This document shows, one piece after another, positions 4,901 to 53,614 of a stretch of DNA of 64,000 bases. The first letter of the stretch is position 1. The number at the start of each line of letters is the position of its first letter. Where the stretch lies: assembly GCA_000004985.1 (NCBI GenBank), contig GG738862.1; one strand, written 5' to 3'. The notes below the pieces were generated by a model. That model saw only the letters and a list, made by a program, of their open reading frames with translations, was not told the origin of the DNA and made no database searches. The position numbers and the translations under genes are program-made. The stretch is from Naegleria gruberi. Lineage: Eukaryota.

Positions 4901-6138
4901 GGCATCTCTTGTACATTCGAATATTTATGAGGATAGTTTTAACAAGATTGACTTTGCAAATAAGCATACCTTTAACAGATTTATGGTGAACAGATGGTTG
5001 GGTGTTAGAATCCATCTCAGTAAGTATTTTCACATTAACATTATTGCTCATCTTCACAGTTTCTCAATCTGTTTTGTTTTTTACTGCTATCTTTGCTATC
5101 ATTGCCAAACATACTCAAGAAATTAGTAGCCCAGCTTTCCTTGTATTGACCATTTCAAACTCTCTTCAGTTGAGTGATTGTTTCCAATCACTAGTTCGTT
5201 CGTTTGTTGAAGTTGAAAGTAACATGACTTGCGTGGAGAGAATTGTGTACTATGCTCAAAGTATCCCACAAGAAGCTGCCTACGATAAAGAAGGTGATCC
5301 AACCACAAGAGAATGGCCAACTAAGGGACACATTCAATTAGATCAATTGTCGGTAAGATACAGAGATGATTTGGATCCAGTTTTGAAGAATCTCGATTTG
5401 GATATCAAAGCAGGCACCAAAGTTGGTGTTGTAGGAAGGTATGTTTGAATATTTCTAACTTTCAAAATTAATATATAACATGAATATAGAACTGGAAGTG
5501 GAAAGAGTACTTTATTGATTTCTCTATTCAGATTCCTTGAAGCCAATGAAGGTAGCATCTCAATCGATGGTCTAGATATTTCCAATATTGGTTTGAGAAC
5601 TTTACGTAAAGCATTATTAATCATTCCTCAACAACCTGTTCTATTCTCTGGATCTATTCGATACAATTTGGATCCTTTCGATGAATTTGAGGATTATGAA
5701 ATATGGAATGCCCTCGAACGAGTTCATATGAAAGAAAAGATTCAACCACTCCAACTCTCCTTCACTGTTACTGAGAATGGAAGCAATTTTTCAATTGGTG
5801 AAAGACAATTACTCTCCCTTAGTAGATGTATTTTGAGGAAGGCAAATATTATCATCTTTGATGAATCCACTGCCTTTGTAGATCATAATAGTGATGAGTT
5901 GGTTCAGAAGGTTGTTAGGGAGGAATTTAAGGATAGTACAATCATAACCGTTGCTCACAGATTGGACACCATCATTGATTCGGATTGTATTGTATTTATG
6001 AAGGAGGGTGAAATTATAGAAACTGGAAGTCCAAAGGAATTACTCTTAGATGAAAGATCGAATTTCTCCTCTCTTGTGAGGGAAACTGGTAAACAATACT
6101 CTGACCACTTGAAGAACAAAGCTTTCAAGCTTGCTTAA
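1940..6138 (+). CDS. ABC transporter, ABCC/MRP subfamily (TMD–NBD–TMD–NBD); at least 4 exons
   Basis: ORFs 1775–2707, 2757–5126, 5002–5448 and 5515–6138 join into one MRP-like protein. NBD1 has Walker A GNTGSGKST and signature LSGGQKHRISLARA. TMD2 contains the MRP-conserved segment (NRWLGVRIHL ... FTAIFAII ... SNMTCVERI), and NBD2 reads VGVVGR|TGSGKSTL ... SIGERQLLSLSRC ... IIFDESTA. Introns: 5020–5059 (40 nt, GTAAGT..AG) and 5439–5489 (51 nt, GTATGT..AG). Both restore frame and are anchored to ORF ends. A further small intron is needed near 2687–2729 to join the first two ORFs; its exact position is uncertain. The first ATG in frame is at 1940 (MPPLISSS...); the ORF-track start at 1775 is a non-ATG codon. 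Stop TAA at 6136–6138. Confidence 0.85.
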
Positions 6139-8722: not shown

Positions 8723-8795
8723 TGCTGACGGACGGGATCGAACCGGCGACCAATGGCTTATTAGACCAACGCTCTACCGACTGAGCTACGCCAGC
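8723..8795 (-). tRNA. tRNA-Ile: tRNA-Ile (anticodon AAU)
   Basis: The reverse complement GCTGGCGTAGCTCAGTCGGTAGAGCGTTGGTCTAATAAGCCATTGGTCGCCGGTTCGATCCCGTCCGTCAGCA folds as a cloverleaf. The acceptor stem is GCTGGCG/CGTCAGC with one G·U pair. A and B boxes are present (TAGCTCAGTCGG, GGTTCGATCC). The anticodon loop CTAATAA gives anticodon AAT. It is similar to eukaryotic tRNA-Ile(AAU). One mismatch in the T-stem. Confidence 0.8.
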
Positions 8796-19698: not shown

Positions 19699-20999
19699 AT
19701 GATCAACAGTAGTTGTTGGTTGGTAGCTGTTTTGTTGATGTTGTGCCTCGTCTCAACTGCAACATGTGCTATTGCCTTGGCTGGTAATAAGAGAGCTGCT
19801 CCATCAACTGCTATGTGTACTCGTTACACTTCTGCATCATTGGTTGGAGATGTTGATTTGAGTAAGGTCACTCCAAAGCCTGTTAACTGTCCTTTGGGAT
19901 GTAATTTGTATACTGTTTCTGGCTCTGCATTGGGTTATAATGGTCCACTTGGGGCTTTGGGGTATGTTGTGTAGCTTTTATGATTTGTTTTACTATTTAT
20001 CAAACATTTTCATTATCATGATCAATCAGTCCTTTGGGTCCTTTGGGTCCTGTTTCCACTGGTACCCCTTACAATGTTCCTGATAATTTTGTTTGGTATG
20101 GAAATAACTTTAATACTTACCTTAAGGAAATGAATGCATGTGATAAGTTATTGAGCCATCCACAAAATCCACTCTCTTCTGCTGGCCCAATGGGTGATGC
20201 TTTCTTTGATGTCATGCCAAAGATTAACGATTTCACTAAACACATGATGGGTAAGTTGTTAAATAGTATTTGAATGCTAATAGGAATATTTCAATACGAA
20301 ATGTTGATGAAACCATTATTATATATTTACAAATTTTACACATTAAAAGGTATGGGAGTTTGGACTGTTTTGGGACCATTGGGACCTTTGGGCCCACTTG
20401 GTGCTTTGGGACCATTGGGTCCAGTTGGTTGCCACATGTTGGACGTTGATAAGGATGGTCAATTCGTCAGTAAGAAGGGTGAAGTTTTGAGAACTACCTC
20501 AGTTGTTTATAACTCGTCCCTCACTGTTAACTGGCCTCTTTTCGAAAGATATAAGAGTAGAGAATTCGTTGACAAATTGTCCAAGAAGGGTTTGCTCGAC
20601 ACTTCTTTCATGGTTTCTGCTAGTGTTGATATTACTGGTCATGCCTATGACATGGTTGTTACTGAACCTCAATACGTCACTGTCACTGTTATCCCAACTC
20701 TCTGGGCTAAGAACTTCTTCTTGGAAGCTTTCATTAACGGTAAATCTGTTATGAAGTCTGAAAAGCTCTTATTCACTCCTTGGTTCCAAGTCCACATTTC
20801 TGGAGCTGATTTGCAAAATGCTGGTCCAGGTGGAGCTAAATTGAAGGTTGTCATTAAGACTGATCCTCTCGATTGTGGAATGATGTCTGTCTTTGGATGT
20901 ACTATGGATTACACAATGCATGTTGTTGGTTCAACTTCATTCATGATGAGAAAGCCACACCTCAGTTACACTGGTCCACATATTAAGCAATGTGAATAA
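19699..20999 (+). CDS. secreted protein with two short collagen-like (GPL/GAL/GPV) Gly-X-Y runs; 3 exons
   Basis: Signal peptide MINSSCWLVAVLLMLCLVSTATCAIALA. Exons are 19699–19961, 20030–20250 and 20350–20999. Introns are 19962–20029 (GTATGT..CAG) and 20251–20349 (GTAAGT..AAG). Both sit at or next to the GPLG-coding repeats and restore frame (anchored to ORF ends). The spliced protein reads ...YNGPLGALGGPLGPLGPV... and ...KHMMGMGVWTVLGPLGPLGPLGALGPLGPVG.... It has a Cys-containing C-terminal domain of unknown function. Confidence 0.65.
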
Positions 21000-26617: not shown

Positions 26618-29600
26618 ATGACTGCAAACATCAACAAGCTTCAGTGCTGGCGGTCTTACTTGTTGATTCTTCTCTCTGTTATCCTTCTCGTTGGTGATGC
26701 ATCACCATTATCTTCATCAGCCCACTCAACATATGTTCGCTATCAGTTTGAAACTCTTGCCGGAAACCTTCAACCAGTTTTTTCTCTGTCATTCAAACAA
26801 ATTCAACAATCCAAAGTCAATCCTGATATTCTCTTCATAGTGTCTGCAAGTGATTCTCTTTACAAGTACAATCAAACAAGTGGAGAAAGGAACCTACTGG
26901 TCGGATGTGATGTGTTATCCTATAACTTGTGCATTAAAGAATCAATGGTAACCAACATTTCCCATCTGGCAACATCTGTTTCTATCTACATTACTGGATT
27001 TCATGTGATGGTTTCTTCTAATGAACAAGTAATTTATATTAGCACCGACCATCAATTGTTTCGAATGGAAAATAAGAATATTACACTCCTTTCGGCAATG
27101 TGGTCGACTAGTGATGAAAATCCAAACTTGGATGGAATGCATATTTCGGATAGTTGGTTTAGGTTTTTAAAATCAGTTGTTGTTGATGAAGATGAGAAGA
27201 CTTTATATCTTGCAGATGGACAAGTTATTAGAAAGTTGGATGTGGAAACTGGTATTTTAAAGTCCATCACAACAACAGGAGATGACCCAGTATCTAAGTT
27301 TGATGGACCTGCCAATCAGACTGTTCTTAAACTGCCACAAAAACTACTCCTTCATAATGGATTTCTTTATGGAAATGATGCATTTTCACTTTTTAAAATT
27401 AATATTCAAAGTGGATGGTTGACAGTAATAACTGGCACGATCAATTATATATTAGGTGTTAATTTTCCAGCTCCAAAATCAGGTGATAATGCTAAAAATT
27501 CAACACTTTTATCAATTCGTGGATTTCACATTATGGAGGATGATTCCATTCTAATAATTTCTGGAAATACTTTTTATCAGATCGATCAAAAAAGTGGATT
27601 ACTAACTATACTTTACAATTTTGAAGAAGCTATCTTTTTGGCAACACCCAATTTGGTATTTTCATTACAAAAGGTTTACAAATTAAATAGATTGAATTGG
27701 TCTATGGAAACAATTATAGATTCACATATTGGGGCCATTACGGATGGTTCAATAGCAAAGAATAGAAAATTCTTTGACATTTCAGCACTGACAATGAACG
27801 AAACCACTGGGGATTTACTATTTTCTGATTCATTGTCAAATTACAATCTTTACAAAGTTGATAAGGATGGAAGGTTTTTCACAGTGAATTTACAAATGTC
27901 AAACGTATCTTGTTGGAATTCCTCTATCAGAACTGATAGCTCTTTAACATTCAATCCAGTCTCTTTCCAATTGAGAAACTCTACTTTATATGTTGCCAAT
28001 TCTGGAATGCACAGTTCAATCCAAAAATTTGATCTATCTCAACAAGGATCAAGTTGCTTCTATTCAGGATCAATTTCAAGTGATAGACTTTTGCAACAAG
28101 GGAGTGGACTATCCATGTTGGTTAATAACCCTACTGGATTATATTGTAATATCAATTCTGACGAGATATTTGTTGCCGACACTGAAAACCACAGAATTCT
28201 CAAATATATTTCACATAATCTAGTTCAAGTAATTGCAGGTACTGGAAAGCAAGGTTTTTCAGGAGATGGTGGCTTAGCCATTCATGCTCAACTGAATAGA
28301 CCTCACTCAATTTCCTACGATCGTTCCAATAGAGATCTTTACATTGCAGGTATGTCATTCATTTTCATTATTTTAACATTCATAAAGATTCTGGAAATCA
28401 CAGAATTCGAAAGATTTCTTCTGATGGAACTATTTCTACAATTTTAGGAACTGGCTCGGGTGGATTTAATGGAGATGGTCTCCCTCCATTACAAACGCAA
28501 ATTAATTTCCCTAAAGGTGTTACTTACTCACCCTTTCTGGGAATTGCAATTTCTGATACCTATAACCATAGAGTGAGATTATTTAGAGAAGGAAATGTGA
28601 GCACAATATTGGGAACTGGAACATCTGGAATGAAAGTAGTGGAGGATAATCCAACAGAGACAGAGATTATTTCACCTTTTGGTCTGGTTTGGGCTGAATC
28701 AACTTCATCCCTTTACATAGCTGGTAAGTTTCGAATTTTAGTCGAACATTGACAAATTGTTTCAGATCAATTCAATCACAGAATATTACATCTCCAATAT
28801 CTATATGGTAGTGTAGCAATCATTGCAGGAACCAATTTACCTGGATATAATGGAGATGGCATGAAAGCTAACTTAGCCAAACTATTTCTTCCAAGTTCTG
28901 TAGTTTTGGCTCCTGACAATACAATTCTAATTGCAGACACTTACAATAATTTAATAAGGAAAATTAGTAATGGAATAATTTCTTCATTTGAAACAAAAAT
29001 TGGTCTTGGTCAATCCTATCAAATCAAACAACCGATTGGGTTGTGTTTAACATTATCTGGACCTTTTGTGACAACTGAAAATGCCGTTACCTCATTAAGT
29101 TCAGGCTATACCTCCAACATAATTGGAGGAAATGGAGATGGAATGAATGTTTATTATGCAGATGTTAATCCAACAAGAATGATACTCTCTCCATTTGGAA
29201 ATGAAGGATCAATGATATTTTCAGAATCGAATTCGAATAGAATAAGATATGTCGACAGTAATGGAATCATTTCAACCATTGTTGGTTGTGGAGTATTTGG
29301 ATATATGGGTGATAAATATCCTTCTCAATTTGCCTTTCTTGCTTCACCTACTGGTATAGCACTGAATCCAATAACAAATGATTTAATTTTCTGCGATACC
29401 TCCAATAATCGTATTAGAATAGCTTCTATAAATGAATTAAACGTAGTTGATACGATTGCTGGAACAGGAAATAGCGCATATGATTCAGAAGTATCAGATC
29501 CCTTACTCTCACCACTCAATAAGCCAAGAGTGGTTGCCACATTTAGCAATGGTGACATTGTCATTGGAGACACTTTAAATAATCTATTCAAGATGATTTC

Positions 29601-31431
29601 AAGGAGAGACGGAAAAATTAGAGCCATTGGTATGGGATTTGCAACTGACATGTACGTCACTAAGGATAACATTATCATCTTTTCATCAAGGGAAGAACTT
29701 ATCAAGATGGTTCCTTATTGTGATCTTGGCTATCAATTAGTTGAGAAAAATACCGACTGCATTCCAGTATGTTTTGGATTGACTGGAAATTTGACATGTA
29801 CTAGAAATGGAGAATGCACCTTACCAAATACTTGTAAATGCTCACCTGATTTCACTGGAAAAGCGTGCGAAATTCCAATTTGTTTTGGTTTACCATCCAA
29901 TTCTTCTAATGTTTGTAATAATGGAAATGGAACCTGTGTGTCACCAAATAAGTGCGTTTGTAATGATGGGTTTTATGGAGATCAGTGTCAATATCCTCTT
30001 TGTTTCTCATCATTAATAGAGGAATCATGTGGTGGAATTAATAGAGGAAGGTGTGTCCATAGAAATAAGTGTGAATGTAAGGATAATTTCACAGGTAGAC
30101 AATGTGAATATAGATCTTGTCTTGGAAAGAGTGAAGTTGACCAAAAAGTTTGCAATGGAAATGGTAGGTGTGGATCTGCAGGAAAATGCGAATGTAATTT
30201 GGGTTATTCTGGAGCAGATTGTTCTGATTTGACTCAAGTCTATGCAGTGAGCATCACAGCTGCTGTCATCTTATTAATTTTGATTATTCTAATTCTTGTT
30301 TCTTCTATTTTAGGATGGTTTTTATATAAGAGAAACAGGAGAGATCGAAAGATTATTGAAACAGAACTCTCTCTTGATGAAAGACTCTTGGCAACTACAG
30401 ATCTTGAGCTCTCCCAATTCAGCACAAGTGTTGGTTCAGGATCTCAATCATCCTCAGATGATTCTCCTTCATTTGTCATTCCACTTCACAAGCTAGGAAT
30501 GGATAAGCCAATTCGTAGATTGGGAGAAGGAGGCATGGGAAGCGTATTCATGACCAAATATAATGGAATGATTGTTGCTGTCAAGGTTTTTGATTTGAAT
30601 AATTTCAATATTTCAGAGGAAGATTTTAGAAATGAAGCCATTTTACTAAGTAGAATCAGACACCCAAATATTATAACTTTCTATGGAGTTTCTTCATCTC
30701 CTACGAAACGTTTTATAGTAATGGAATGTTTGGATCAGAGCTTGGAAAAGTTTATTTCTAAATTGGAAACTAAACTAATCAATCTTTCATTAGACCAAAA
30801 ATTGAAAATGTTATTGAATATTGCTAATGGAATTGAATATCTACATACAATGCAACCTAGAAAGATTATTCACCGTGACTTGAAACCTCAAAATATCCTT
30901 CTAGATTCGAATGGAAATTGTAAAGTTTGCGATTTTGGATTAAGCAAATCCATTTCACAAGGAACTATCTCAACAATCACTAATCAATTAGGTACTTTTT
31001 ATTATATGAGCCCAGAAATGTTTGATATTGAAGCTGTCGATCCTACTTACGCTACTGCAATTGACATTTACAGTTTCAGTATTATTGGATGGCAATTATT
31101 ATTCGAAAGCAAAGATCCTTACGTTTACAATAGTCAAGAAGTAGCTAGAAAGTTGAGCTCCAAACTACTCGAACATGTAACCTCCTACCAATTGACCAAG
31201 TTAATTTGTGAAAACAATCACAGACCTGCCATTCCATTCAATTCTCTCAAATCATGTCGTGAATGGTGTTTGGAATTTTTACCCACAACTGAACAAGAAA
31301 ATTATTCAATAGTATTCAAGTTATGCCAACTCATCAAACAATGTTGGCAAGGAAATCCAAAACTTCGACCAAGCATTGAACAAATTGTTGAACAATTACA
31401 AACCTTAGAACAAGAATTTAACAAGATTTAA
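26618..31431 (+). CDS. receptor-type protein kinase: signal peptide, large NHL-repeat ectodomain, ~5 tenascin-type EGF-like Cys repeats, one TM helix, TKL-like Ser/Thr kinase domain; 3 exons, ~1577 aa
   Basis: Exons are 26618–28349, 28388–28723 and 28766–31431. Introns are 28350–28387 (GTATGT..AAG, 38 nt) and 28724–28765 (GTAAGT..CAG, 42 nt). Both interrupt NHL motifs (LYIAG|DSGNHRIRKI; LYIAG|DQFNHRILHL) and restore frame into the ORF starting at 28861. NHL repeats (..ADT.NHRI.K...) are spread over residues ~100–950. EGF-like repeats are CxCxxGFxGxxCxxxxC (residues ~1000–1170). TM helix is VYAVSITAAVILLILIILILVSSILGWFLY. Kinase motifs are GEGGMGSV, VAVKVF, HRDLKPQNILLD, DFGLSK, YMSPE. Confidence 0.8.
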
Positions 31432-42555: not shown

Positions 42556-44166
42556 ATGCAACAACTTCCCGATGAAATTCTTATGACAATTTTTACCTAT
42601 TTACCAGCCGAAGAAATTGTTGGGTGCATTAGTTTAGTTTCTAAATATTGGTATCAAAATTTGTGTTCAGAAATGGATTTAAAAGTAATCCAAGTAAAAT
42701 CACATCAAATTCCTAGCTTTGTAAAATGTCCCATGCTGAAAAAATTAATCAAGTTACATCTGATTGATGAAATTCATTTAGATCACTTTACATTGATTGG
42801 AAAATGTGAATTTCTTGAAAATCTACAGGTTTTAAAAGGAGACTATATGAATTTTGCAAGTCCTAAAGTGTTGTGTTCTTTAGTTTTCAGCAAATTTGCT
42901 ACAAAGTTGAAGAAAATCAAAAATGAATGGTCCTCTGTTTCATATTATAGCTTTGAATGGGCTGAGCAAATACTTCCAAACATAGCAGAAATTACAGGAA
43001 ATCCATTATGGTATCATGTTTTAGGAATGTGTTCTAACAAATTGAATGGATATTTTAAAGCAAGTGATCTTGGATACATACCTTCTCTGATACATCTTGG
43101 AGAGAAATTTGAAGATGTTGATGTAGAAGAAAGTTTTCATTACTATTTAAAAGCAGCAGAATTGGGTAGCCCTAAAGCTCAATATTTCGTTGGTCGGATG
43201 TATCAAATTGGTGAAGGTGTTAACCAGGATTTGAAGGAAGCATTCCAATGGTATTTAAAATCTGCCAATCAAGGACGTGTAGAATCAATATTTCAAGTTG
43301 CAACTAATTATAGAAAGGGAATTGGAATTGAAAAGTCTTTGTCAAAAGCTGAAGAGTGGTACCGAATTGGGGCTTTGAAAAATCATCCTGCTTGTCAATT
43401 TGGTTTAGGGCAAATTTTATTACTAAATGGATCGAGTACAAATTGTAAACAAGCAGTTTCATTCTTGATGAAATCAGCAGAGCAGGATTGCTTTGGTGCC
43501 ATGCATACTATTGGAAAATTATATGAATACGGGATTGGGCTTGATACGGATTTGGAAAAAGCATTCGAGCAATATTTGAAATGTGCAAAAGAAGGAAAAG
43601 ATTTAGAATCTGAATACCTAGTTGGAAAAATGTTAATTCAAGGAAAGGGAACGAAAAAACATTTCTACAGAGGTTTTAAATACCTTGAAAAAGCAGCAAA
43701 TAGATCCCATAGATTGAGTTGCATACTAGTAGGAATTATTTATCGCTTTGGATTAGGAGTTGATAAGGATGTTGAACAATCCAATGAATTATTACAATCA
43801 TTGGATTTAGATATTGATTTGTTAATTGATCCAACAAAGGTTGAGTCAGATTGTACTTGTAATTTGTGTTTCAATACTAAAATCATTAAGGGGTATTATC
43901 ATGGATGTGAGAATGAACAATGCAACTTTGAAATTTGTACAGATTGTTATGAATCAATCATTGACTTACAATGTCAATCATGTAAAGGAAATTCATTTAA
44001 AAAGAAGAATGCCATGTATGAGCTACTACCAACTCTGAATCAGTTATTGGAAAATTCAGAAGAAACCAAACCAAAGAAAAGAAAGAAGAAAAAAAATGAA
44101 AATCAAGATGGAAGGAAATTATTTACAGAATTCATGAATAAGCTTACAACAGCATTACAACAATGA
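42556..44166 (+). CDS. F-box protein with ~7 Sel1/TPR-like repeats and C-terminal Cys-rich zinc-finger-like region, 536 aa
   Basis: F-box LPDEILMTIFTYLPAEEIVGCISLVSKYWY. Sel1 repeats (AxxWYxKAAxQG...AQYxLGxMYxxGxGV). The C-terminus reads CTCNLCFNTKIIKGYYHGCENEQCNFEICTDCYESIIDLQCQSCKG. ATG after an A-run; TGA stop. Confidence 0.75.
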   Translation: MQQLPDEILMTIFTYLPAEEIVGCISLVSKYWYQNLCSEMDLKVIQVKSHQIPSFVKCPMLKKLIKLHLIDEIHLDHFTLIGKCEFLENLQVLKGDYMNFASPKVLCSLVFSKFATKLKKIKNEWSSVSYYSFEWAEQILPNIAEITGNPLWYHVLGMCSNKLNGYFKASDLGYIPSLIHLGEKFEDVDVEESFHYYLKAAELGSPKAQYFVGRMYQIGEGVNQDLKEAFQWYLKSANQGRVESIFQVATNYRKGIGIEKSLSKAEEWYRIGALKNHPACQFGLGQILLLNGSSTNCKQAVSFLMKSAEQDCFGAMHTIGKLYEYGIGLDTDLEKAFEQYLKCAKEGKDLESEYLVGKMLIQGKGTKKHFYRGFKYLEKAANRSHRLSCILVGIIYRFGLGVDKDVEQSNELLQSLDLDIDLLIDPTKVESDCTCNLCFNTKIIKGYYHGCENEQCNFEICTDCYESIIDLQCQSCKGNSFKKKNAMYELLPTLNQLLENSEETKPKKRKKKKNENQDGRKLFTEFMNKLTTALQQ

Positions 44167-44566
44167 AACAACTCATCAATGGAAAGCTTTAAATATCCGC
44201 CATAGTACCATCATTAATTTGCAGGAAGCCAAGTACTTCTTCTGTTGGAGATGGACATTGTCTTCCATGGCACTGGTTCCCTTAATATAATCTTTTGCAT
44301 CCATGGAAATGATTACTAAATTGGCGCCCACACCCGAACAAAGAGTCCATGTTAAATCCTTTCATAACAAATTTCATAACATGAAAGAAATGGTTTAACT
44401 ACCAACATTGTTACGAGCACTTATTAATTTCACATGGCTGTCATCGCATTACTCTTAACCAAGTGACACGCGCAGTTTTTAAAAAGACAGAGATGATTCG
44501 AATCTATTGATTTAGTACGCTACGACGTTCCTGTGCTGATACTCAACTTACTCATCACCCAAAAAA

Positions 44567-46436
44567 ATGACAAGTAGAGTTAAACTAGTTTTATTTGCTC
44601 TTTTCTCAATTGCCTTGTTATGTTTGACCATTCAAGGTACTGAAGGAAGAGGCATTGCTAAACGTTTCCAAAGAGCAATTCAGAAAGCTGCTCAAAAAGC
44701 TGCTGCCAGAGTAACCATTAATCATTGTCAAGCTGTTGGTGATCCTCATATCACTGATTTCAGAAGACAATACAAGGTAGGTTTTGAAATTAGACCAATT
44801 AATTGACATGCAATAGGATCATTATGGAGCTGGTGATTATGTTTTAGCCGAAACTGAGGATGGAAATTTTGTTGTACATGGAAGAACCACAAAGTTTAGA
44901 ACTGTCAGTGTTCACACTGGTCTTGCTGCTCTCATCAATAAGGAACGTAGAATTGAGTTTGATCTTGGCACTCGTCAAATTTATATTGATGGTGTTGTTA
45001 CCAATATGAATGTTGGACAAAAGATTCAATTAGATAATGCTGGATCATATGTTCAAAGAACTGGTCCACAAACTTTGGTTATTGCTGGAAAAAGAGGTGA
45101 AAGATGTACATTCTCATGGACATTCGCATGGTTGACACCATATATTGATTTCTACTTGGATGCTCCTTCCAATGTTCCATTCACTGGTGGTGTATGTGCT
45201 GACATGAAGTATTTGACAAGTAGTGCTAGTGGTGTTTTCCGTAATCACATAAAACGTACCATTAATACAGTTGTTCCAAAGAAACCAACACCAGCCAAGA
45301 TTGAAAAGGCCACTAAGAAATGTACTAAAGCTGGTTTGAGTTCTGCACTCCATCCAATGGCTTTCCGTTCATGCATGGAAGATCAAATTCAATTCGGTGG
45401 AAAGGGTGGTGATGCTTTAGCTAAGAATGCTGCCAAGAATCAAAAACATCACGATAAGAATGTCAAGAAGTGGAAGAAACAAGCTGTCAAGAAGGCAATT
45501 GCCAAGGCTGTTAAAAAGGTCATTAAGAAGGCAGTTGCAAAGGCAAGTCCAGAAGAAAAGAAGAAACTCAAAAAGCAATTGAAAAAGGTTGCCAAGAAAG
45601 TTCAAAAGAAGGTTGTTAAAAAGGCTGCCAAGAAGGATGCCAAGAAGAGAGCAAAGAAACTTTCTAAGAAGGCCCAAAAGAAGGCTGCCAAGAAACTTGC
45701 CAAGATTTTGAAGAAATCAGGTAAAAGAAGTAAAAGAAGAGCTGCAAGACGTGCTAAAAGACAAGCTGAAAGAAGAAAGAGATTGGCTAAAAGACGTGCT
45801 GCTAGAAGACAAAGATTGGCTGCTAGAGAAGCTGCTAGAAGAAGAAAAGCTCAAAGACGTGCTGCTAGAAGAGCTGCTAGACGTCTCAGAAGAGCTGCCA
45901 AAAAGAACTCAAAAAGACATTCCAAGAAGGCATCCAAGAGATCTAAGAGGAGAAGACACTCTGGCAAGAAATCCCAAAAGAGAGTCAAGAAAGTTATCAA
46001 GTGTGCTAAAAGAAAGAGAGGTGTTAGAAAGTCTAAACGTTCCACAAGACGTTCTCTAATCAAGAAGGCCAAGAGGGCTGCCAAACGTGCAAAGAAAGCA
46101 TTGTTGAAGAAGAAACGTTCTGCCATTAGATCTCAAAAGAGAGCCATTAGAAGATTAAGAAGAACTGTTAGAAAGTTGAAGAGAAAGTCCAGAAGAGCTC
46201 GTAACATCGTTAAGAAACTCAGAAGACGTGCTGAAAAGACTGGTAAGAAGAGAGCCATTCGTGCTTACAAACTTGCAATTAAGGCTGCAAGAAGAGCCAG
46301 AAGAGCCGCCAGAAGAGCATGTAAAAAAATTAACAAGAAGGCAAGAAAGATCAATAAGCTTGTTAAAAAGATTAAGAAAGCTGCTAAAAAAGCTGCCAAA
46401 AAGGCTGAAAAGAAGGTTTTGAAGAAGAATAAATAA
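44567..46436 (+). CDS. secreted protein: signal peptide, VWD-like domain (CxxxGDPHITDF...), then ~330-aa Lys/Arg/Ala-rich polybasic tail; 2 exons
   Basis: Exon 1 is 44567–44776 (MTSRVKLVLFALFSIALLCLTIQG...CQAVGDPHITDFRRQYK). Intron is 44777–44816 (GTAGGT..ATAG, 40 nt). Exon 2 is 44817–46436, in frame with the ORF at 45006. The junction gives the GDPH..DG/DHYG pattern of VWD domains, followed by ..FVVHGRTTKF...IDGVVT.... The tail is made of KKAxKK / RRAARR units (AKKAAKKLAKILKK..., RRAARRAKRQAERRKRLAKRRAARR...). TAA stop. Confidence 0.7.
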
Positions 46437-46508
46437 ATCTAAACCGTTGGTGTCACCTGGAATAAGGAATATCACATTGCGCCTAAATAGGATAATTTTG
46501 GGTGTAAA

Positions 46509-46582
46509 GCCTTCCTAGCTCAGTTGGCAGTAGCGCTGTCCTAGTAAGACAGAGGTCTTGGGTTCGATTCCCAAGGGAGGCA
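46509..46582 (+). tRNA. tRNA-Thr: tRNA-Thr (anticodon AGU)
   Basis: GCCTTCCTAGCTCAGTTGGCAGTAGCGCTGTCCTAGTAAGACAGAGGTCTTGGGTTCGATTCCCAAGGGAGGCA. Acceptor is GCCTTCC/GGGAGGC. Anticodon stem-loop is CTGTC-CTAGTAA-GACAG with anticodon AGT. T-arm is TTGGG-TTCGATT-CCCAA. It resembles eukaryotic tRNA-Thr(AGU). Confidence 0.85.
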
Positions 46583-47031
46583 TTCTTTTACACTCTCAAT
46601 TTGCATTTTTTTTTATTTCTTATCTGTTCTTTATTTTGAATTACGGATCTTAGTATTGGTTCTTCAAAGTTAACATACGTTTAGGTTCAAACTAGTGTAA
46701 TCAGAGAAATGACTTGGAATCTATCTTTGACCTTCCAATAAATATTGTAAACATCTTAAATACGTCCGTTTAATGCAGCCGACCCAAATAGTTCCAGTGA
46801 GGCGCATCAATTCAATACGCACATGCGTCATTAAATAAGCAACCAACACAAAAAAAATAACAAAATTCTCCTCTTCTTCAGCTGAGCTTTGTTATTTTCT
46901 CACTCATATTTCAACCACTGCAGTAAATATCAAGAGAGAGTTTCATCACAATTTTCAATTTTATTTGCATTATTTAATATTATCCGTATTCCATATTGTT
47001 ACTAAATATAAAATACAATACATAATTGAAA

Positions 47032-48742
47032 ATGGGTAATGTCATTGCTGATCAAGTGATGGAATCAAGTAATGGACTTTTTGGATGGAGTTCGGGAAGC
47101 CTTCTTGTGGCAGTACTTGTATTGTTTGCATTGTACAAGTTTATAGTGGCTAGTTATGGAGTCTATTCACAAGCAAACAAACTAAAGATGATTCCTGGAG
47201 TGAGCCAATACTTCTTTTCTCCTTTTTATATTCCATTCTTTGCTCCGTATGCATATATGGGTAATTCAAAACATGTGCCAGAATTTATTGAAAAGTATGG
47301 TGATAAGAATAAGACTTTCAGACTTTCATTTATTGACCGTTCAGCACTTTGGATAAGTGATCCAAAATTATTGAAAGAGTTCTTTATTACAAAGGCAACC
47401 CATTTTGACAAACCAAAGTTTGTTTATGAAATGATGAATATCTTTGGAGAGAATATTTTGACAGCTATGAATAACGATACATGGAAGAAGCATTTCAGGA
47501 TTTGCAGTCCTGCTTTTGTCCCAAAGAACTTGGAATATACTTGCAGAGTTGCCACAAAAACTTGTGATTTAATGTTCAAGAATTGGAATAGAAAAATTGA
47601 AAAGAATGGAAACATGCAATTAACTGTTGGCGATTATTCTGATATTACACTTGGTAAGTTTCAGTTGACGACTCAATCAATATTTAGAGAGAAAATATAG
47701 ACATTTTAGGAAAAGCTGGATTCAATATTGATTTTGGTATCTTTTCTGATAATGCTGAAGGTAGAAAATTCAGAGAGTCTATGGATTTAATGATGGCTAA
47801 GGGTCTTTTGATGAGAAGATTTTTGAAAGCTGATTCATTTTTATATAATTTAATTGGAAAATTCACTGGAGTTATTGAGGCTATTGAATATTGTGGAAAT
47901 ACTCTCGATAAAATTATCAATGAAAGAAGAGAAGCTGTCAAGCAGCGTATCAGTGGAGCTAATGATGATGAATATAGTGATATTTTGAGTTTGCTTGTAG
48001 AAGCCAACGTACTTGAGAACTTATTAACAGATGGTGAAGTTAAGAGTAATTCGATGATAATGGTGCTTGCTGGCCATGAAACGACGTCAACTTGTAAGTT
48101 TGATTGCATGATAATGTATCTCATCTCATCCTAATAGTGATGCAATGGGTTTCTTATGAAATTTCAAAGAAGCCAGAAATTCAAGACAAGTTATTTAAGG
48201 AAGTTACTGAGGTTTTGAATGGAAGAGATCCAACCTATGAGGATGTCGAAAAGTTGCACTATGTTAATGCTGTTTTGATGGAAACTCTTCGTTACAGACC
48301 TCCAGTTTCTGCAATTATTCGTCAAGCAAACAGAAACACTACTCTTGGAGATTATCCAATTCCAAAAGGAACTACCATCAACCCAATGTTCCAATATCTT
48401 CACAAGAGACCAGACATTTGGACTGAACCAAACTCTTATATGCCAGAAAGATTTGTTGACCCACAATTCAGAGAGGAATCTCAACATAATTTAACATTCT
48501 TGGCTTTCAGTTTTGGTAATAGGTAAGTATTGATGATATTTCAATTTGTAATATTAACAATATTAAGACAATGTATTGGTAAGAAGTTTAGTTTGTTGGA
48601 GGCTTGTATGATTTTGGCTAAACTTATTCAAAACTACAAGTTTAGATTGTTGAATGATGAAACTGTTGATCCAGTTGTTAGTCATATCAGAGTTGTAAAT
48701 AGACCTTCCAAAAATATGAAAATTGAAATTACAAGAAGATAA
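47032..48742 (+). CDS. cytochrome P450; 4 exons, 521 aa
   Basis: Exons are 47032–47653, 47710–48093, 48138–48522 and 48568–48742. Introns are 47654–47709 (GTAAGT..TTAG), 48094–48137 (GTAAGT..ATAG) and 48523–48567 (GTAAGT..TAAG). All are frame-consistent and anchored to ORF ends. The spliced protein gives the I-helix AGHETTSTLMQWVSYEISKKPEIQ, the K-helix ETLR, PERF, and the heme loop FSFGNRQCIGKKF. N-terminal membrane anchor present. Confidence 0.85.
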
Positions 48743-51877: not shown

Positions 51878-53614
51878 TTATTTTGAATTATGATAAAAGT
51901 AGAGTTTCAGATTATGATTTTTAAATATTCTAATGATGGCATCAAGTGAACCAGATTCCAATACAACTGGATCATATCTCACTCTGATAATACGAAGTTT
52001 TTCGAATGATGTATTCTGAATCAAAGCTTGTGCACTTTCTGCATCATAAATGGTGACATCCAACCTGGTTACCTTATTCATTGGAGCAGAATACATTGCT
52101 CGAGCCAATGATGTAATAGGAGTGTTCAAAATAATTTCCTTAATATTTGAAAAGTCTGAATCCATAGTGATTGACATTGTCTTGTAATTTTCAATGGTTG
52201 TCTTTGGTATAATATGTAAGGTCAATTTGTCTAGATTTTCAAATGCTGTACCAACTCCAATATCAGTATTAATTAATTTTCCAATAGACCATTTCAAGGA
52301 TAATCTCTTCAAGTGTGTATATGGATAAATTAATAAGTGTTCAATATCATCCACATAAGTACATTGATTAATTTCAAGGAACTCGAGTTGTGGAAATTTC
52401 TCTGGAATCGATACAAGTTCTTCTTGACAGTTTGCGTGTATGTGACGAATGGCTAACGTTTTCAAACCGGATATAGTCAAGTTGTTGTCTAACTCTTGAA
52501 AAACTTCTGGGCTATCTACCCTATCAATATACAGATATTGTAATTTTTCCATCTTCATCTTGAACAATTGTACAAGAAATGCATCACCAAAACCTCCAAT
52601 ATTTAGATAGACAAGGTTGGATTCTTTACCTATAGTAGTGGTAGTATCAGCAAGTGTGATAACTTGAGAAGGGCTTGCTTTCAAACGTAGGTGAGTGAGT
52701 TGAATAAATTTCGAGTTTGAAAAAATGGCAGTAACTATGGATGAAATTTGAGCTACTGGTATAGTGGTAAATTTCAAATCCAATTTTGTAAGTGAAAATA
52801 TTTCAAAGGATGAAGGAAAAGGACCAAGCTTTGTAGATATATTTTCCAATTTCAATTCTGTCAATCTCTCTTTAACAGAAAGAAGAGATTTATATACCGT
52901 ACGTCCAATATTGTTCACAGATACTACTCTTAAATTGTACAAGTATGGATTATTGATGGCATATTTGAGATCTGCTGTTTTTCCAGGAGAAAATGAACAA
53001 TCGTCAATTACAATAGTCTTCAATTTGCTCAAATTTGTGTTATGTACATCAGGTCCAAGAACTGTACAATTCAAATGTCTTATTCTCAAATGAGTCAAAT
53101 TAACACATGCTTTGAATATCCATTGCCATGCTTTAGGTTTCAAATTTGCACGAACATCCAAACAGGCAAGATTCTTAAAGCATGGACTACCAATAAACTT
53201 TTTCAGAACAGTACTCTTGATCGTTTCTTTAATGTAGGCCATAGTCACTCCACATTGTGCTTGTTTCCACTCAGACGAAACACTCATCAAGCGAATGGTT
53301 TGAAAATAGGGTAAATATTGCATAATCTTGGAAACTACATCCGAACAGAATACATTACTACTTTCATTACTGGCATAGAAAGGTGAACCGGAAGTGTTGC
53401 CATCAGAAACCATTGCTTCTTGATCAAATTCTTCAAATTTAATCTTTTTTCGTGATGGTTCGAATTCTTGTTGATGATGATAAACATTGATCACTTCGGA
53501 ATCTGCTTCTTCGTCGTCTATTGTATCCAATTCAATGAATTCTTCATCGTCATCATCGTCAACATTAATTACTTGATGACTTCTCTTTCTGGCTCCATCG
53601 TTGGTTCTGACCAT
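51878..53614 (-). CDS. F-box / leucine-rich-repeat protein, ~579 aa
   Basis: Acidic N-terminus, then an F-box (CSDVVSKIMQYLPYFQTIRLMSVSSEWKQ). Irregular LRRs run to the C-terminus (LTHLRIRHLNCTVLG.., LTELKLENISTKLG..). The ATG at 53614 follows an A-run. The ORF-track extension to 53818 reads as poly-K from that A-run. Confidence 0.7.
   Translation of the reverse strand: MVRTNDGARKRSHQVINVDDDDDEEFIELDTIDDEEADSEVINVYHHQQEFEPSRKKIKFEEFDQEAMVSDGNTSGSPFYASNESSNVFCSDVVSKIMQYLPYFQTIRLMSVSSEWKQAQCGVTMAYIKETIKSTVLKKFIGSPCFKNLACLDVRANLKPKAWQWIFKACVNLTHLRIRHLNCTVLGPDVHNTNLSKLKTIVIDDCSFSPGKTADLKYAINNPYLYNLRVVSVNNIGRTVYKSLLSVKERLTELKLENISTKLGPFPSSFEIFSLTKLDLKFTTIPVAQISSIVTAIFSNSKFIQLTHLRLKASPSQVITLADTTTTIGKESNLVYLNIGGFGDAFLVQLFKMKMEKLQYLYIDRVDSPEVFQELDNNLTISGLKTLAIRHIHANCQEELVSIPEKFPQLEFLEINQCTYVDDIEHLLIYPYTHLKRLSLKWSIGKLINTDIGVGTAFENLDKLTLHIIPKTTIENYKTMSITMDSDFSNIKEIILNTPITSLARAMYSAPMNKVTRLDVTIYDAESAQALIQNTSFEKLRIIRVRYDPVVLESGSLDAIIRIFKNHNLKLYFYHNSK

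What the first reader, a model, noticed from the sequence alone, without database searches (positions are those of the whole stretch)
44567..46436. Secreted VWD-like domain fused to a ~330-residue histone-H1-like poly-Lys/Arg/Ala tail
A signal peptide and a von Willebrand factor D-like module lie at the N-terminus (CxxxGDPH[IY]xTFD, split by a 40-nt intron). They are followed by an uninterrupted tail of KKAxKK and RRAARR repeats with an estimated pI above 12 and no acidic counterpart. Polybasic tails like this normally bind nucleic acids or polyanions inside cells. On a secreted VWD protein the combination is unusual. It could be an extracellular DNA/polyanion-binding or antimicrobial cationic protein, or a cell-coat component. 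The minus-strand ORFs in the track inside this region are artefacts of the repeat.
Basis: partly seen in the sequence, partly recalled or inferred. Interest (0 to 1): 0.65.

Follow-up and report, generated by a model that had tools for sequence, protein, structure and literature searches.

The report
Secreted VWD protein with polybasic helical tail
This is a real, one-intron gene of a Naegleria-like amoeba that encodes a secreted protein with a mucin-type VWD domain followed by a 337-residue, extremely positively charged helical tail; the design is conserved in Naegleria and its relatives but has never been studied.

Summary
Exon 1 (44567-44776), a 40-nt GT-AG intron (44777-44816) and exon 2 (44817-46436) encode 609 aa. 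These comprise a signal-peptide-like N-terminus, a short cationic peptide, a VWD beta-sandwich with an intact GDPH motif, a two-cysteine helical hairpin and a 337-aa tail (K 31%, R 19%, A 18%; pI about 12).

The tail is translated and constrained. It aligns colinearly with the tail of Naegleria gruberi XP_002671385 (z = 25.7). Its last 109 residues are 68-73% identical, against 35% in the VWD sheet. A relative encodes signal peptide, VWD and tail in one uninterrupted ORF.

"Histone-H1-like" holds for composition only. The tail has almost no Pro or Gly, no H1 domain, and a strong alpha-helical amphipathic periodicity.

The likely role, which is inferred and not shown, is extracellular binding of polyanionic surfaces. 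I rate it a new variant of a known kind, of moderate interest.

The parts
44567..44776 (+). Exon 1 (aa 1-70): start codon, signal peptide, N-terminal cationic peptide, first VWD strand with C54 and GDPH
   Evidence: ORF and translation. Aligns without gaps to homologues across the exon junction.
44567..44647 (+). Signal-peptide-like segment, aa 1-27 (MTSRVK-LVLFALFSIALLCLTI-QGTEG), putative cleavage after TEG
   Evidence: By inspection of the sequence. All tail-bearing homologues have the same hydrophobic N-terminus ending (V/T)-E-(G/A/S) followed by R/K. No SignalP run was possible.
44648..44725 (+). N-terminal cationic amphipathic peptide, aa 28-53 (RGIAKRFQRAIQKAAQKAAARVTINH)
   Evidence: Sequence. 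Similar R-G-G-+-I...R-R-I-I-G-K segments follow the signal peptide in P0121 and P0126.
44738..44749 (+). GDPH motif (G58 D59 P60 H61), candidate Asp-Pro autocleavage site
   Evidence: D nearly invariant, P and H invariant in the 22-sequence family alignment. Asp and His are required for cleavage in FCGBP D10 (PMC10880436).
44777..44816 (+). 40-nt spliceosomal intron, GT-AG, phase 0
   Evidence: Unspliced reading hits a stop after 9 codons. Homology is continuous across the junction. Similar 33-47 nt introns occur elsewhere in the window. There are no differences from metagenome contig L001.
44817..46436 (+). Exon 2 (aa 71-609 plus TAA stop)
44726..45206 (+). VWD beta-sandwich, aa 54-200 (interrupted by the intron); conserved C54 and C197 (GxC)
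45207..45422 (+). Linker plus helical hairpin with conserved C239 and C256 (A..C..AG...C..D), a possible C8 remnant
45423..46433 (+). Polybasic amphipathic-helix tail, aa 273-609 (337 aa; net charge +0.48 per residue)
   Evidence: Composition and pI. Imperfect 12/24/33/48-nt tandem repeats in its first half. Hydrophobic periodicity peak at 99.5 degrees, power 33 against a shuffle maximum of 18; mean hydrophobic moment 0.55 against 0.28. Colinear alignment with the N. gruberi tail, z = 25.7.
46107..46433 (+). Most conserved part of the tail, aa 501-609
   Evidence: 68-73% identical and gap-free against N. gruberi P0121. The composition-only expectation is 17.7 +/- 3.3%; the VWD sheet is 35% identical.

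Best explanation
A protein-coding gene of an unsequenced heterolobosean (Naegleria-like) amoeba. It encodes a secreted member of a lineage-restricted family of cationic VWD-domain proteins and is the likely orthologue of Naegleria gruberi XP_002671385 (NAEGRDRAFT_59485).

Shown here:
- the gene model;
- the VWD fold, with an intact GDPH motif and two conserved cysteine pairs;
- a two-cysteine helical hairpin after the VWD;
- a 337-aa tail free of Pro and Gly, half Lys/Arg, with alpha-helical amphipathic periodicity, whose C-terminal third is more conserved than the globular domain.

Inferred mechanism:
1. The N-terminal signal peptide takes the protein into the ER.
2. The VWD folds and forms disulfides (C54-C197 and C239-C256 by analogy).
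3. It probably cleaves itself at D59|P60, as GDPH-type VWDs do. The N-terminal cationic peptide would stay tethered through C54.
4. Outside the cell the tail is kept extended by charge repulsion. It folds into long amphipathic helices when its charge is neutralised on a polyanionic surface. Candidates are bacterial envelopes, acidic polysaccharides, extracellular DNA, or the amoeba's own coat or cyst-wall material.
5. The protein therefore acts as an extracellular polycationic binder or 'glue' for adhesion, agglutination or matrix assembly. The VWD unit provides a stable, possibly oligomerising or covalently reactive anchor.

The confidence given is for this functional reading. The structural description on its own I hold at about 0.9.
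For: - Gene model and composition.
- Organism: the neighbouring aminopeptidase P is 52-54% identical to Naegleria proteins. The same locus is on an ENA metagenome contig at 99.1% identity.
- Coding constraint: 11 substitutions against that contig, of which 7 are synonymous, with no indels.
- Family: 25 representatives found by exhaustive phmmer. The best are N. gruberi, N. lovaniensis, N. fowleri ('VWFD domain-containing protein') and Willaertia magna.
- Same architecture (signal peptide, VWD, K/R/A tail) in P0121, P0124, P0125 and P0126. P0124 is one uninterrupted ORF.
- VWD identity.
- GDPH: P and H are invariant and D nearly invariant in the family. Asp and His are the residues needed for cleavage (PMC10880436).
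- Extracellular context of the family: paralogues carry Ser/Thr/Pro-rich mucin-like regions or dozens of Cys-rich repeats.
- Tail: amphipathic periodicity of 98-99.5 degrees in four family members, colinear homology, and 68-73% identity in aa 501-609.
- Codon bias towards AAG, GCT and CGT relative to ten other window ORFs (p = 7e-8, 3e-5, 0.03). This is compatible with high expression or avoidance of poly(A) runs.
Against: - No experiment or transcript supports secretion, cleavage or any ligand. No paper mentions the Naegleria orthologues, and two N. fowleri secretome supplements do not list them.
- Pfam VWD does not hit this copy.
- No signal-peptide predictor was run. The strongly basic segment right after the hydrophobic core could in principle affect topology.
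- The high positional conservation of the last 109 residues is more than generic charge-driven binding would require. It hints at a specific partner that I cannot name.
- A tail made almost entirely of dibasic sites might be cut up by kexin-like proteases in the secretory pathway.
Confidence: 0.5

Rival explanations
1. Precursor of cationic antimicrobial peptides. The tail, and the N-terminal RGIAKRFQRAIQKAA peptide, are released by proteolysis in phagolysosomes or after secretion. They kill or permeabilise bacterial prey as amphipathic cationic helices.
For: Strong amphipathic 3.6-residue periodicity and a hydrophobic moment of 0.55. Net charge +0.48 per residue. Abundant dibasic sites. The organism is a bacterivorous amoeba lineage. 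Codon bias is compatible with high expression.
Against: The tail is 337 aa with no recognisable repeated peptide unit or spacer. Its C-terminal 109 aa are 68-73% conserved across genera, whereas antimicrobial peptides usually diverge fast (my own knowledge). The hydrophobic face is mostly Ala, which is weak for membrane insertion. No such peptide is reported for Naegleria in the papers searched.
Confidence: 0.15
2. Cyst-wall or secretory-granule protein. The basic tail acts inside the secretory pathway as a condensation or sorting domain, pairing with acidic cargo or glycans, and is partly processed before wall assembly. This is functionally like the basic C-terminal extension of Giardia CWP2.
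For: Giardia CWP2 has a 121-residue basic C-terminal extension that is processed and carries sorting information (PMC2851657). Family paralogues look like matrix or mucin-type proteins. GDPH-type VWDs mature in the late secretory pathway in animals (PMC10880436). Heterolobosean amoebae encyst (my own knowledge).
Against: There are no expression data linking any family member to encystation. There is no sequence relationship to CWP2. The tail is three times longer than the CWP2 extension and better conserved than the folded domain.
Confidence: 0.2
3. Intracellular nucleic-acid-binding protein of histone H1, protamine or kinetoplast-associated-protein type. The hydrophobic N-terminus would be an organellar or non-cleaved targeting signal, and the tail would compact DNA or RNA.
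For: K/R/A-rich composition and pI of 12. Such composition is typical of DNA-condensing proteins (my own knowledge).
Against: No linker-histone or other nucleic-acid-binding domain. The tail is fused to a VWD fold with conserved cysteine pairs and GDPH, a domain known only from extracellular and cell-surface proteins (PMC10880436). The N-terminus has a 16-residue hydrophobic core typical of ER signals and conserved in homologues. Almost no Pro, and no S/TPKK motifs.
Confidence: 0.05
4. Mis-annotation: the basic region is a low-complexity repeat that is not translated, or exon 1 belongs to a different transcript.
For: There is no transcript evidence. Weak 12-48 nt tandem repeats lie in the first half of the tail. 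Several overlapping ORFs occur in other frames.
Against: The frame is continuous from the VWD into the tail for 539 codons. The tail is colinear with the N. gruberi orthologue (z = 25.7) and reaches 73% identity. A homologue has signal peptide, VWD and tail in a single ORF. Differences from the metagenome contig are mostly synonymous and there are no indels. The alignment is gap-free across the splice junction.
Confidence: 0.02

Closest known systems
Naegleria gruberi predicted protein XP_002671385 / UniProt D2VXA1 (NAEGRDRAFT_59485), with N. fowleri XP_044566319 (FDP41_012263) and Willaertia magna KAL9649995: uncharacterised database entries
   Same: Signal peptide, a cationic peptide after it, a GDPH-type VWD with the same four conserved cysteines, a helical hairpin, and a long K/R/A tail. 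The tail is colinear with the N. gruberi protein and 68-73% identical in its last 109 residues.
   Different: The N. gruberi protein has two VWD units and an extra C-terminal two-cysteine 'KWNP' module of about 55 aa that the window protein lacks. VWD identity is only 35-40%. None of these proteins has been studied.
GDPH-type VWD domains of animal FCGBP, MUC2, MUC5AC and RGM
   Different: There is no full C8 (2 cysteines instead of 8), no TIL or E modules and no PTS mucin domain in this protein. Pfam VWD does not reach significance on this copy. A polybasic helical tail is not a feature of any animal VWD protein that I know of (my own knowledge). Lang et al. 2016 record VWD in Naegleria without C8 or TIL (PMC4948705).
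Giardia lamblia cyst wall protein 2 (CWP2) basic C-terminal extension
   Same: [quoted passage not shown]
   Different: No sequence or fold relationship: CWP2 has LRRs, not a VWD. Its extension is 121 aa against 337 aa here. Processing and function are shown for CWP2 but not here.
Linker histone H1 C-terminal domain
   Same: Lys/Ala-rich, pI about 12, with almost no acidic residues.
   Different: No winged-helix globular domain. Pro 0.3% and no S/TPKK motifs. Arg-rich as well as Lys-rich. Sharp helical amphipathic periodicity and positional conservation. Preceded by a signal peptide and an extracellular-type domain.
Cationic amphipathic alpha-helical peptides, and 11-mer-repeat amphipathic helices of the apolipoprotein / alpha-synuclein / LEA type
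   Same: Periodicity of 3.6-3.67 residues, a narrow apolar (Ala/Val/Ile/Leu) face and a wide cationic face. A 33-nt (11-aa) tandem repeat lies at 45753-45872.
   Different: Far longer than antimicrobial peptides. Far more charged than lipid-binding 11-mer proteins. No sequence similarity was detected to any solved structure apart from one weak hit (8fit_A, 'cs074A', E 0.003).

Membership tests
VWD domain (Pfam PF00094 / PROSITE VWFD) | Direct match of the protein to the Pfam VWD model | tested here: not met
   No PF00094 hit at E <= 1 for the full protein or aa 1-275. There is only a sub-threshold RGM_C hit (13-15 bits against a cut-off of 27).
VWD domain (Pfam PF00094 / PROSITE VWFD) | Homology to recognised VWD domains at profile level | tested here: met
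   The 22-sequence family profile hits FCGBP (E 5.7e-39; best single domain 2.9e-11 over profile positions 7-101), MUC5AC, MUC5B, MUC2 and VWF. 20 of 22 family members hit PF00094 at E <= 0.1, best 2.3e-9. UniProt names the N. fowleri and N. lovaniensis members VWFD domain-containing.
VWD domain (Pfam PF00094 / PROSITE VWFD) | VWD beta-sandwich fold | tested here: met
GDPH-autocleaving VWD (FCGBP / MUC2 / MUC5AC / RGM type) | Intact G-D-P-H after the first strand, with the catalytically required Asp and His | tested here: met
   G58 D59 P60 H61. P and H are invariant and D nearly invariant in the family. The requirement for Asp and His is shown in PMC10880436.
GDPH-autocleaving VWD (FCGBP / MUC2 / MUC5AC / RGM type) | Cysteine upstream of GDPH able to tether the cleaved N-fragment by a disulfide | tested here: inconclusive
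   C54 and C197 (GxC) are conserved. The bond itself cannot be shown, because exon 1 was not in the model.
GDPH-autocleaving VWD (FCGBP / MUC2 / MUC5AC / RGM type) | Actual Asp-Pro cleavage of the protein | not testable with these tools
   Needs reducing against non-reducing SDS-PAGE or mass spectrometry of the expressed protein.
Gel-forming mucin / FCGBP D assembly (VWD-C8-TIL-E plus PTS) | Complete C8 (8 Cys), TIL and E modules, and Pro/Thr/Ser-rich mucin domains | tested here: not met
   Only a two-cysteine helical hairpin follows the VWD. There are no C8 or TIL Pfam hits. The tail has T 0.9%, S 4.7% and P 0.3%. Some paralogues in Naegleria do have S/T/P-rich regions.
Linker histone H1/H5 | Winged-helix globular domain (PF00538) flanked by a Lys/Ala/Pro-rich disordered tail; nuclear protein | tested here: not met
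   No Pfam hit. Pro 0.3%. N-terminal ER-type signal and a VWD domain are present instead.
Repulsive guidance molecule (RGM) | RGM_N and RGM_C domains above threshold, and a C-terminal GPI signal | tested here: not met
Secreted protein (classical ER signal peptide) | N-terminal n-h-c signal with small residues at positions -3 and -1 | tested here: inconclusive
   By inspection, MTSRVK + a 16-residue hydrophobic core + QGTEG|R. Homologues show the same (V/T)-E-(G/A/S)|R/K pattern. No SignalP-type predictor was available.
Cationic amphipathic alpha-helical antimicrobial peptides | Short (about 12-50 aa) mature peptide, net positive charge, amphipathic helix | tested here: inconclusive
   Charge and amphipathicity are met. 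Length is not met (337 aa) unless the tail is processed, which cannot be tested here.

The most novel reading that the evidence does not exclude
The tail is not a generic polycation. It is a sequence-specific structural module: an amphipathic, Ala-faced helix up to about 50 nm long that co-assembles with one defined extracellular or luminal polyanion or an acidic partner protein. Candidates include acidic wall glycan, polyphosphate and DNA. The GDPH-cleaved VWD would anchor it, possibly covalently. This would make it the founding example of a protist-specific 'VWD-polycation' matrix or adhesion system that arose independently of animal mucins.
Probability: 0.15. Interest if true: 0.7.

Novelty: new variant of a known kind. 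Interest (0 to 1): 0.45.

Why it matters
VWD domains are best known from animal mucins, VWF and FCGBP. Outside animals they have only been catalogued (Lang et al. 2016).

This work shows that heterolobosean amoebae keep a GDPH-type VWD with a reduced C8-like hairpin. They fuse it to a very long polycationic amphipathic helix whose end is better conserved than the domain itself.

If the tail binds bacterial surfaces, substrate or wall polyanions, it would point to a simple electrostatic adhesion or matrix strategy in free-living amoebae. Orthologues exist in the pathogen N. fowleri, so it could also yield a surface marker or a handle on attachment or encystation.

It also bears on whether VWD autocleavage pre-dates animals.

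Tried and rejected
- Word-indexed homologue search with aa 1-275, and later with the family alignment, found nothing. Only the exhaustive phmmer search found the family.
- Exact look-ups of the window ORFs in the contig index failed because the metagenome copy differs by a few residues.
- The spliced protein could not be submitted to the restricted tools. Exon-2-only sequence was used instead, so the first VWD strand is missing from the model.
- The single-sequence AlphaFold run was useless (pLDDT 45.7).
- The afdb50 fold library was unavailable.
- Literature searches for the orthologue accessions, for 'VWFD domain-containing protein' with Naegleria, and for the metagenome project id returned nothing.
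- Two N. fowleri secretome supplements did not contain the orthologues.
- Two leads were irrelevant: the Acrasis genome paper, where 'von Willebrand' occurs only in a reference title on VWA domains, and the cell-penetrating-peptide preprint.
- A PDB sequence search with the tail gave only one weak hit, 8fit_A 'cs074A'.
- I considered a CaaX-type ending in homologues P0124 and P0125 (…CIRIA, …CLRIA). I rejected it because the Cys is at -5, not -4, and the window protein lacks it.
- I considered a reverse signal-anchor topology because of the basic flank. I rejected it as less likely, given the conserved cysteine pairs and the extracellular-type domain.
Full report
**1. What is in the sequence**

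The plus strand from 44567 to 46436 carries a two-exon gene.
- Exon 1 (44567-44776) is 70 codons.
- It is followed by exactly 40 nt, GTAGGT...AATAG (44777-44816).
- Exon 2 (44817-46436) continues in phase 0 for 539 codons to a TAA.
- Without splicing, the frame stops after nine more codons.

The product is 609 aa.

Five other candidate introns of 33-47 nt occur between open frames elsewhere in the window. They share the same GTA[AG]GT start and a TGAC/CTAAT-like motif near the 3' end. A 40-nt intron is therefore normal for this genome.

The tail is the only segment in all six frames of the window with at least 40% Lys+Arg over 60 residues. The minus-strand and alternative-frame ORFs inside it are Leu/Phe-rich or otherwise composition-driven readings of the AAG/AGA/GCT repeats.

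**2. Source organism**

The window is eukaryotic: about 34% GC and gene-dense, with three tRNA genes. The genes include F-box/Sel1, NHL-EGF-kinase and P450 genes and an aminopeptidase P.

The aminopeptidase P is 52-54% identical to Naegleria fowleri and N. lovaniensis proteins. It is 100% identical to a protein on an ENA metagenome contig. That contig (L001, 8135 bp) is 99.1% identical to window 40366-48499 and contains the same gene.

The organism is thus a heterolobosean-like amoeba that matches no named genome among the hits returned.

**3. Is the gene model real?**

Against L001 the coding sequence has 11 substitutions. Seven are synonymous and four are replacements (R4S, D64N, R401K, K581E). 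There are no indels and no change in the intron.

An exhaustive phmmer search with the exon-2 part of the domain found 25 cluster representatives. The best are:
- N. gruberi XP_002671385 / D2VXA1;
- N. lovaniensis XP_044542426;
- N. fowleri XP_044560351 and XP_044566319, which UniProt names 'VWFD domain-containing protein';
- Willaertia magna KAL9649995;
- several metagenomic proteins.

The alignment of 22 domain copies is gap-free across the splice junction: GDPHITDFRRQYK|DHYGAGDYVLAE against GDPHYVDFRGRAYDFYGKGDYVLAA.

One relative, P0124, encodes signal peptide, VWD and a 339-aa K/R/A/E tail in a single uninterrupted ORF on its contig. The architecture therefore does not depend on my splice prediction.

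**4. The N-terminal module**

Pfam does not recognise VWD in this copy. It gives only a sub-threshold RGM_C match around GDPH. Three other lines of evidence do show a VWD.

First, phmmer against PDB sequences picks the starts of FCGBP VWD domains. A profile of the family hits FCGBP at 5.7e-39 (best single domain 2.9e-11), and also MUC5AC, MUC5B, MUC2 and VWF.

Second, 20 of the 22 family members hit PF00094.

Within the family, P60 and H61 are invariant and D59 nearly so. C54, C197, C239 and C256 are conserved.

Asp and His of GDPH are the residues required for Asp-Pro autocleavage in FCGBP D10. There the released first strand stays attached by a disulfide (PMC10880436). Cleavage here is an inference.

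**5. The N-terminus**

Residues 1-27 have a short basic n-region, a 16-residue hydrophobic core and T-E-G before R28. All tail-bearing relatives show the same pattern, ending (V/T)-E-(G/A/S) followed by Arg/Lys.

A short cationic amphipathic peptide (RGIAKRFQRAIQKAA...) then precedes C54. It has counterparts in the N. gruberi and Willaertia proteins.

I could not run a signal-peptide predictor.

**6. The tail**

Residues 273-609 are 31.5% K, 19.3% R and 18.4% A. Only 8 residues are acidic, Pro is 0.3% and Gly 1.2%, and the pI is about 12.

The first half contains imperfect tandem repeats of 12, 24, 33 and 48 nt.

The hydrophobicity spectrum has a single sharp peak at 99.5 degrees (3.62 residues). 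Its power is 33, against a maximum of 18 in 200 shuffles. The mean 18-residue hydrophobic moment is 0.55, against 0.28 +/- 0.03 for shuffles.

The tails of the N. gruberi and N. fowleri proteins and of the metagenomic relative P0124 peak at 98-99 degrees with even higher power. In the window protein the signal comes mainly from the last third. The first two thirds have a period nearer 4.

The tail aligns colinearly with the N. gruberi tail over about 285 residues (score 721 against 304 +/- 16 for shuffles, z = 25.7). Identity rises along the tail from 24-50% to 68% (aa 501-560) and 73% (aa 561-609), without gaps. Composition alone would give 17.7 +/- 3.3%, and the VWD sheet is only 35% identical.

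The tail is therefore translated and under purifying selection, and it is constrained in sequence as well as in charge.

No Pfam family matches it. No solved structure matches it apart from one weak hit, 8fit_A 'cs074A'.

**7. Other observations on the gene**

The gene prefers AAG, GCT and CGT codons relative to ten other ORFs in the window (p = 7e-8, 3e-5, 0.03). Despite 106 Lys codons in the tail, the longest A-run is 7 nt. This fits high expression, avoidance of poly(A) tracts, or both.

**8. Interpretation**

What the protein is can be stated with high confidence: a secretory-pathway VWD protein of a heterolobosean-restricted cationic family.

What it does is inferred. The whole family couples the VWD to strongly basic low-complexity regions. 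These are K/R/A helices, K-rich Pro/Thr/Ser mucin-like repeats, His/Lys-rich stretches, or basic Cys-rich repeats. That points to an extracellular matrix, coat or adhesive role involving polyanions.

My preferred mechanism is charge-neutralisation-driven folding of the tail into long amphipathic helices on anionic surfaces, with the (probably self-cleaved) VWD acting as a stable anchor.

The rivals are:
- an antimicrobial-peptide precursor;
- a cyst-wall or granule condensation and sorting role, like the basic extension of Giardia CWP2 (PMC2851657);
- an intracellular H1-like DNA binder, which is unlikely;
- mis-annotation, which is effectively excluded.

The unusually high positional conservation of the last 109 residues is not explained by generic electrostatic binding. 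It remains the most interesting open point.

**9. Novelty**

Orthologues sit in public databases as uncharacterised proteins. The presence of VWD in Naegleria has been noted before.

I found no description of the VWD plus polybasic-helix architecture, of its conservation, or of any function.

I therefore rate it a new variant of a known kind, of moderate interest.

Noticed in passing
window 46509-46582 (+); also 8723-8795 (-) and 59007-59079 (+): A tRNA-Thr(AGT) gene lies only 72 nt downstream of the stop codon of the VWD/basic-tail gene. tRNA-Ile(AAT) and tRNA-Gln(TTG) genes lie elsewhere in the window.
   Followed up: no
window 1775-50551: About 30 consecutive long ORFs are nearly all on the plus strand, which suggests a large co-directional gene cluster.
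   Followed up: no
window 5020-5059, 20251-20283, 28724-28765, 47654-47700, 48094-48137: Putative very short introns (33-47 nt) with GTAAGT 5' sites and a TGAC/CTAAT-like motif about 10-20 nt before the 3' AG. They bridge open reading frames, and two of them split the P450 gene.
   Followed up: partly
window 40366-48499 = L001 (ENA ERZ929261, contig k127_331782): The same locus occurs at 99.1% identity in a public metagenome assembly. No named genome among the hits returned matches. The closest named relatives of the neighbouring aminopeptidase P are Naegleria species at only 52-54% identity.
   Followed up: partly
window 26618-28447 and 28861-31431: Two adjacent genes with NHL repeats. The second also has teneurin-like EGF repeats and a C-terminal protein kinase domain, a receptor-kinase-like architecture.
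   Followed up: no
window 32003-33274, 42556-44166, 51878-53818: Several F-box genes, one fused to Sel1 repeats and one to LRRs, which suggests an expanded F-box family.
   Followed up: no
homologues P0121 (aa ~870-926), P0126 (C-terminus), P0129 and P0133 (N-terminus): A conserved module of about 55 aa with two cysteines (L+K+LG+KWNP+K+L...C...C) accompanies the VWD in some relatives, at either end of the protein. It is absent from the window protein.
   Followed up: no
homologues P0139 and P0145 (about 1500 aa, metagenomic): The same VWD type follows dozens of very basic Cys-rich repeats of about 50 aa (C.W....CC....C....C). P0141 and P0140 carry His/Lys-rich stretches. The whole family pairs VWD with cationic low-complexity regions.
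   Followed up: no
window 44567-46436: Codon usage of this gene (AAG, GCT and CGT preferred) differs significantly from ten other ORFs in the window, which prefer AAA and GCA.
   Followed up: partly
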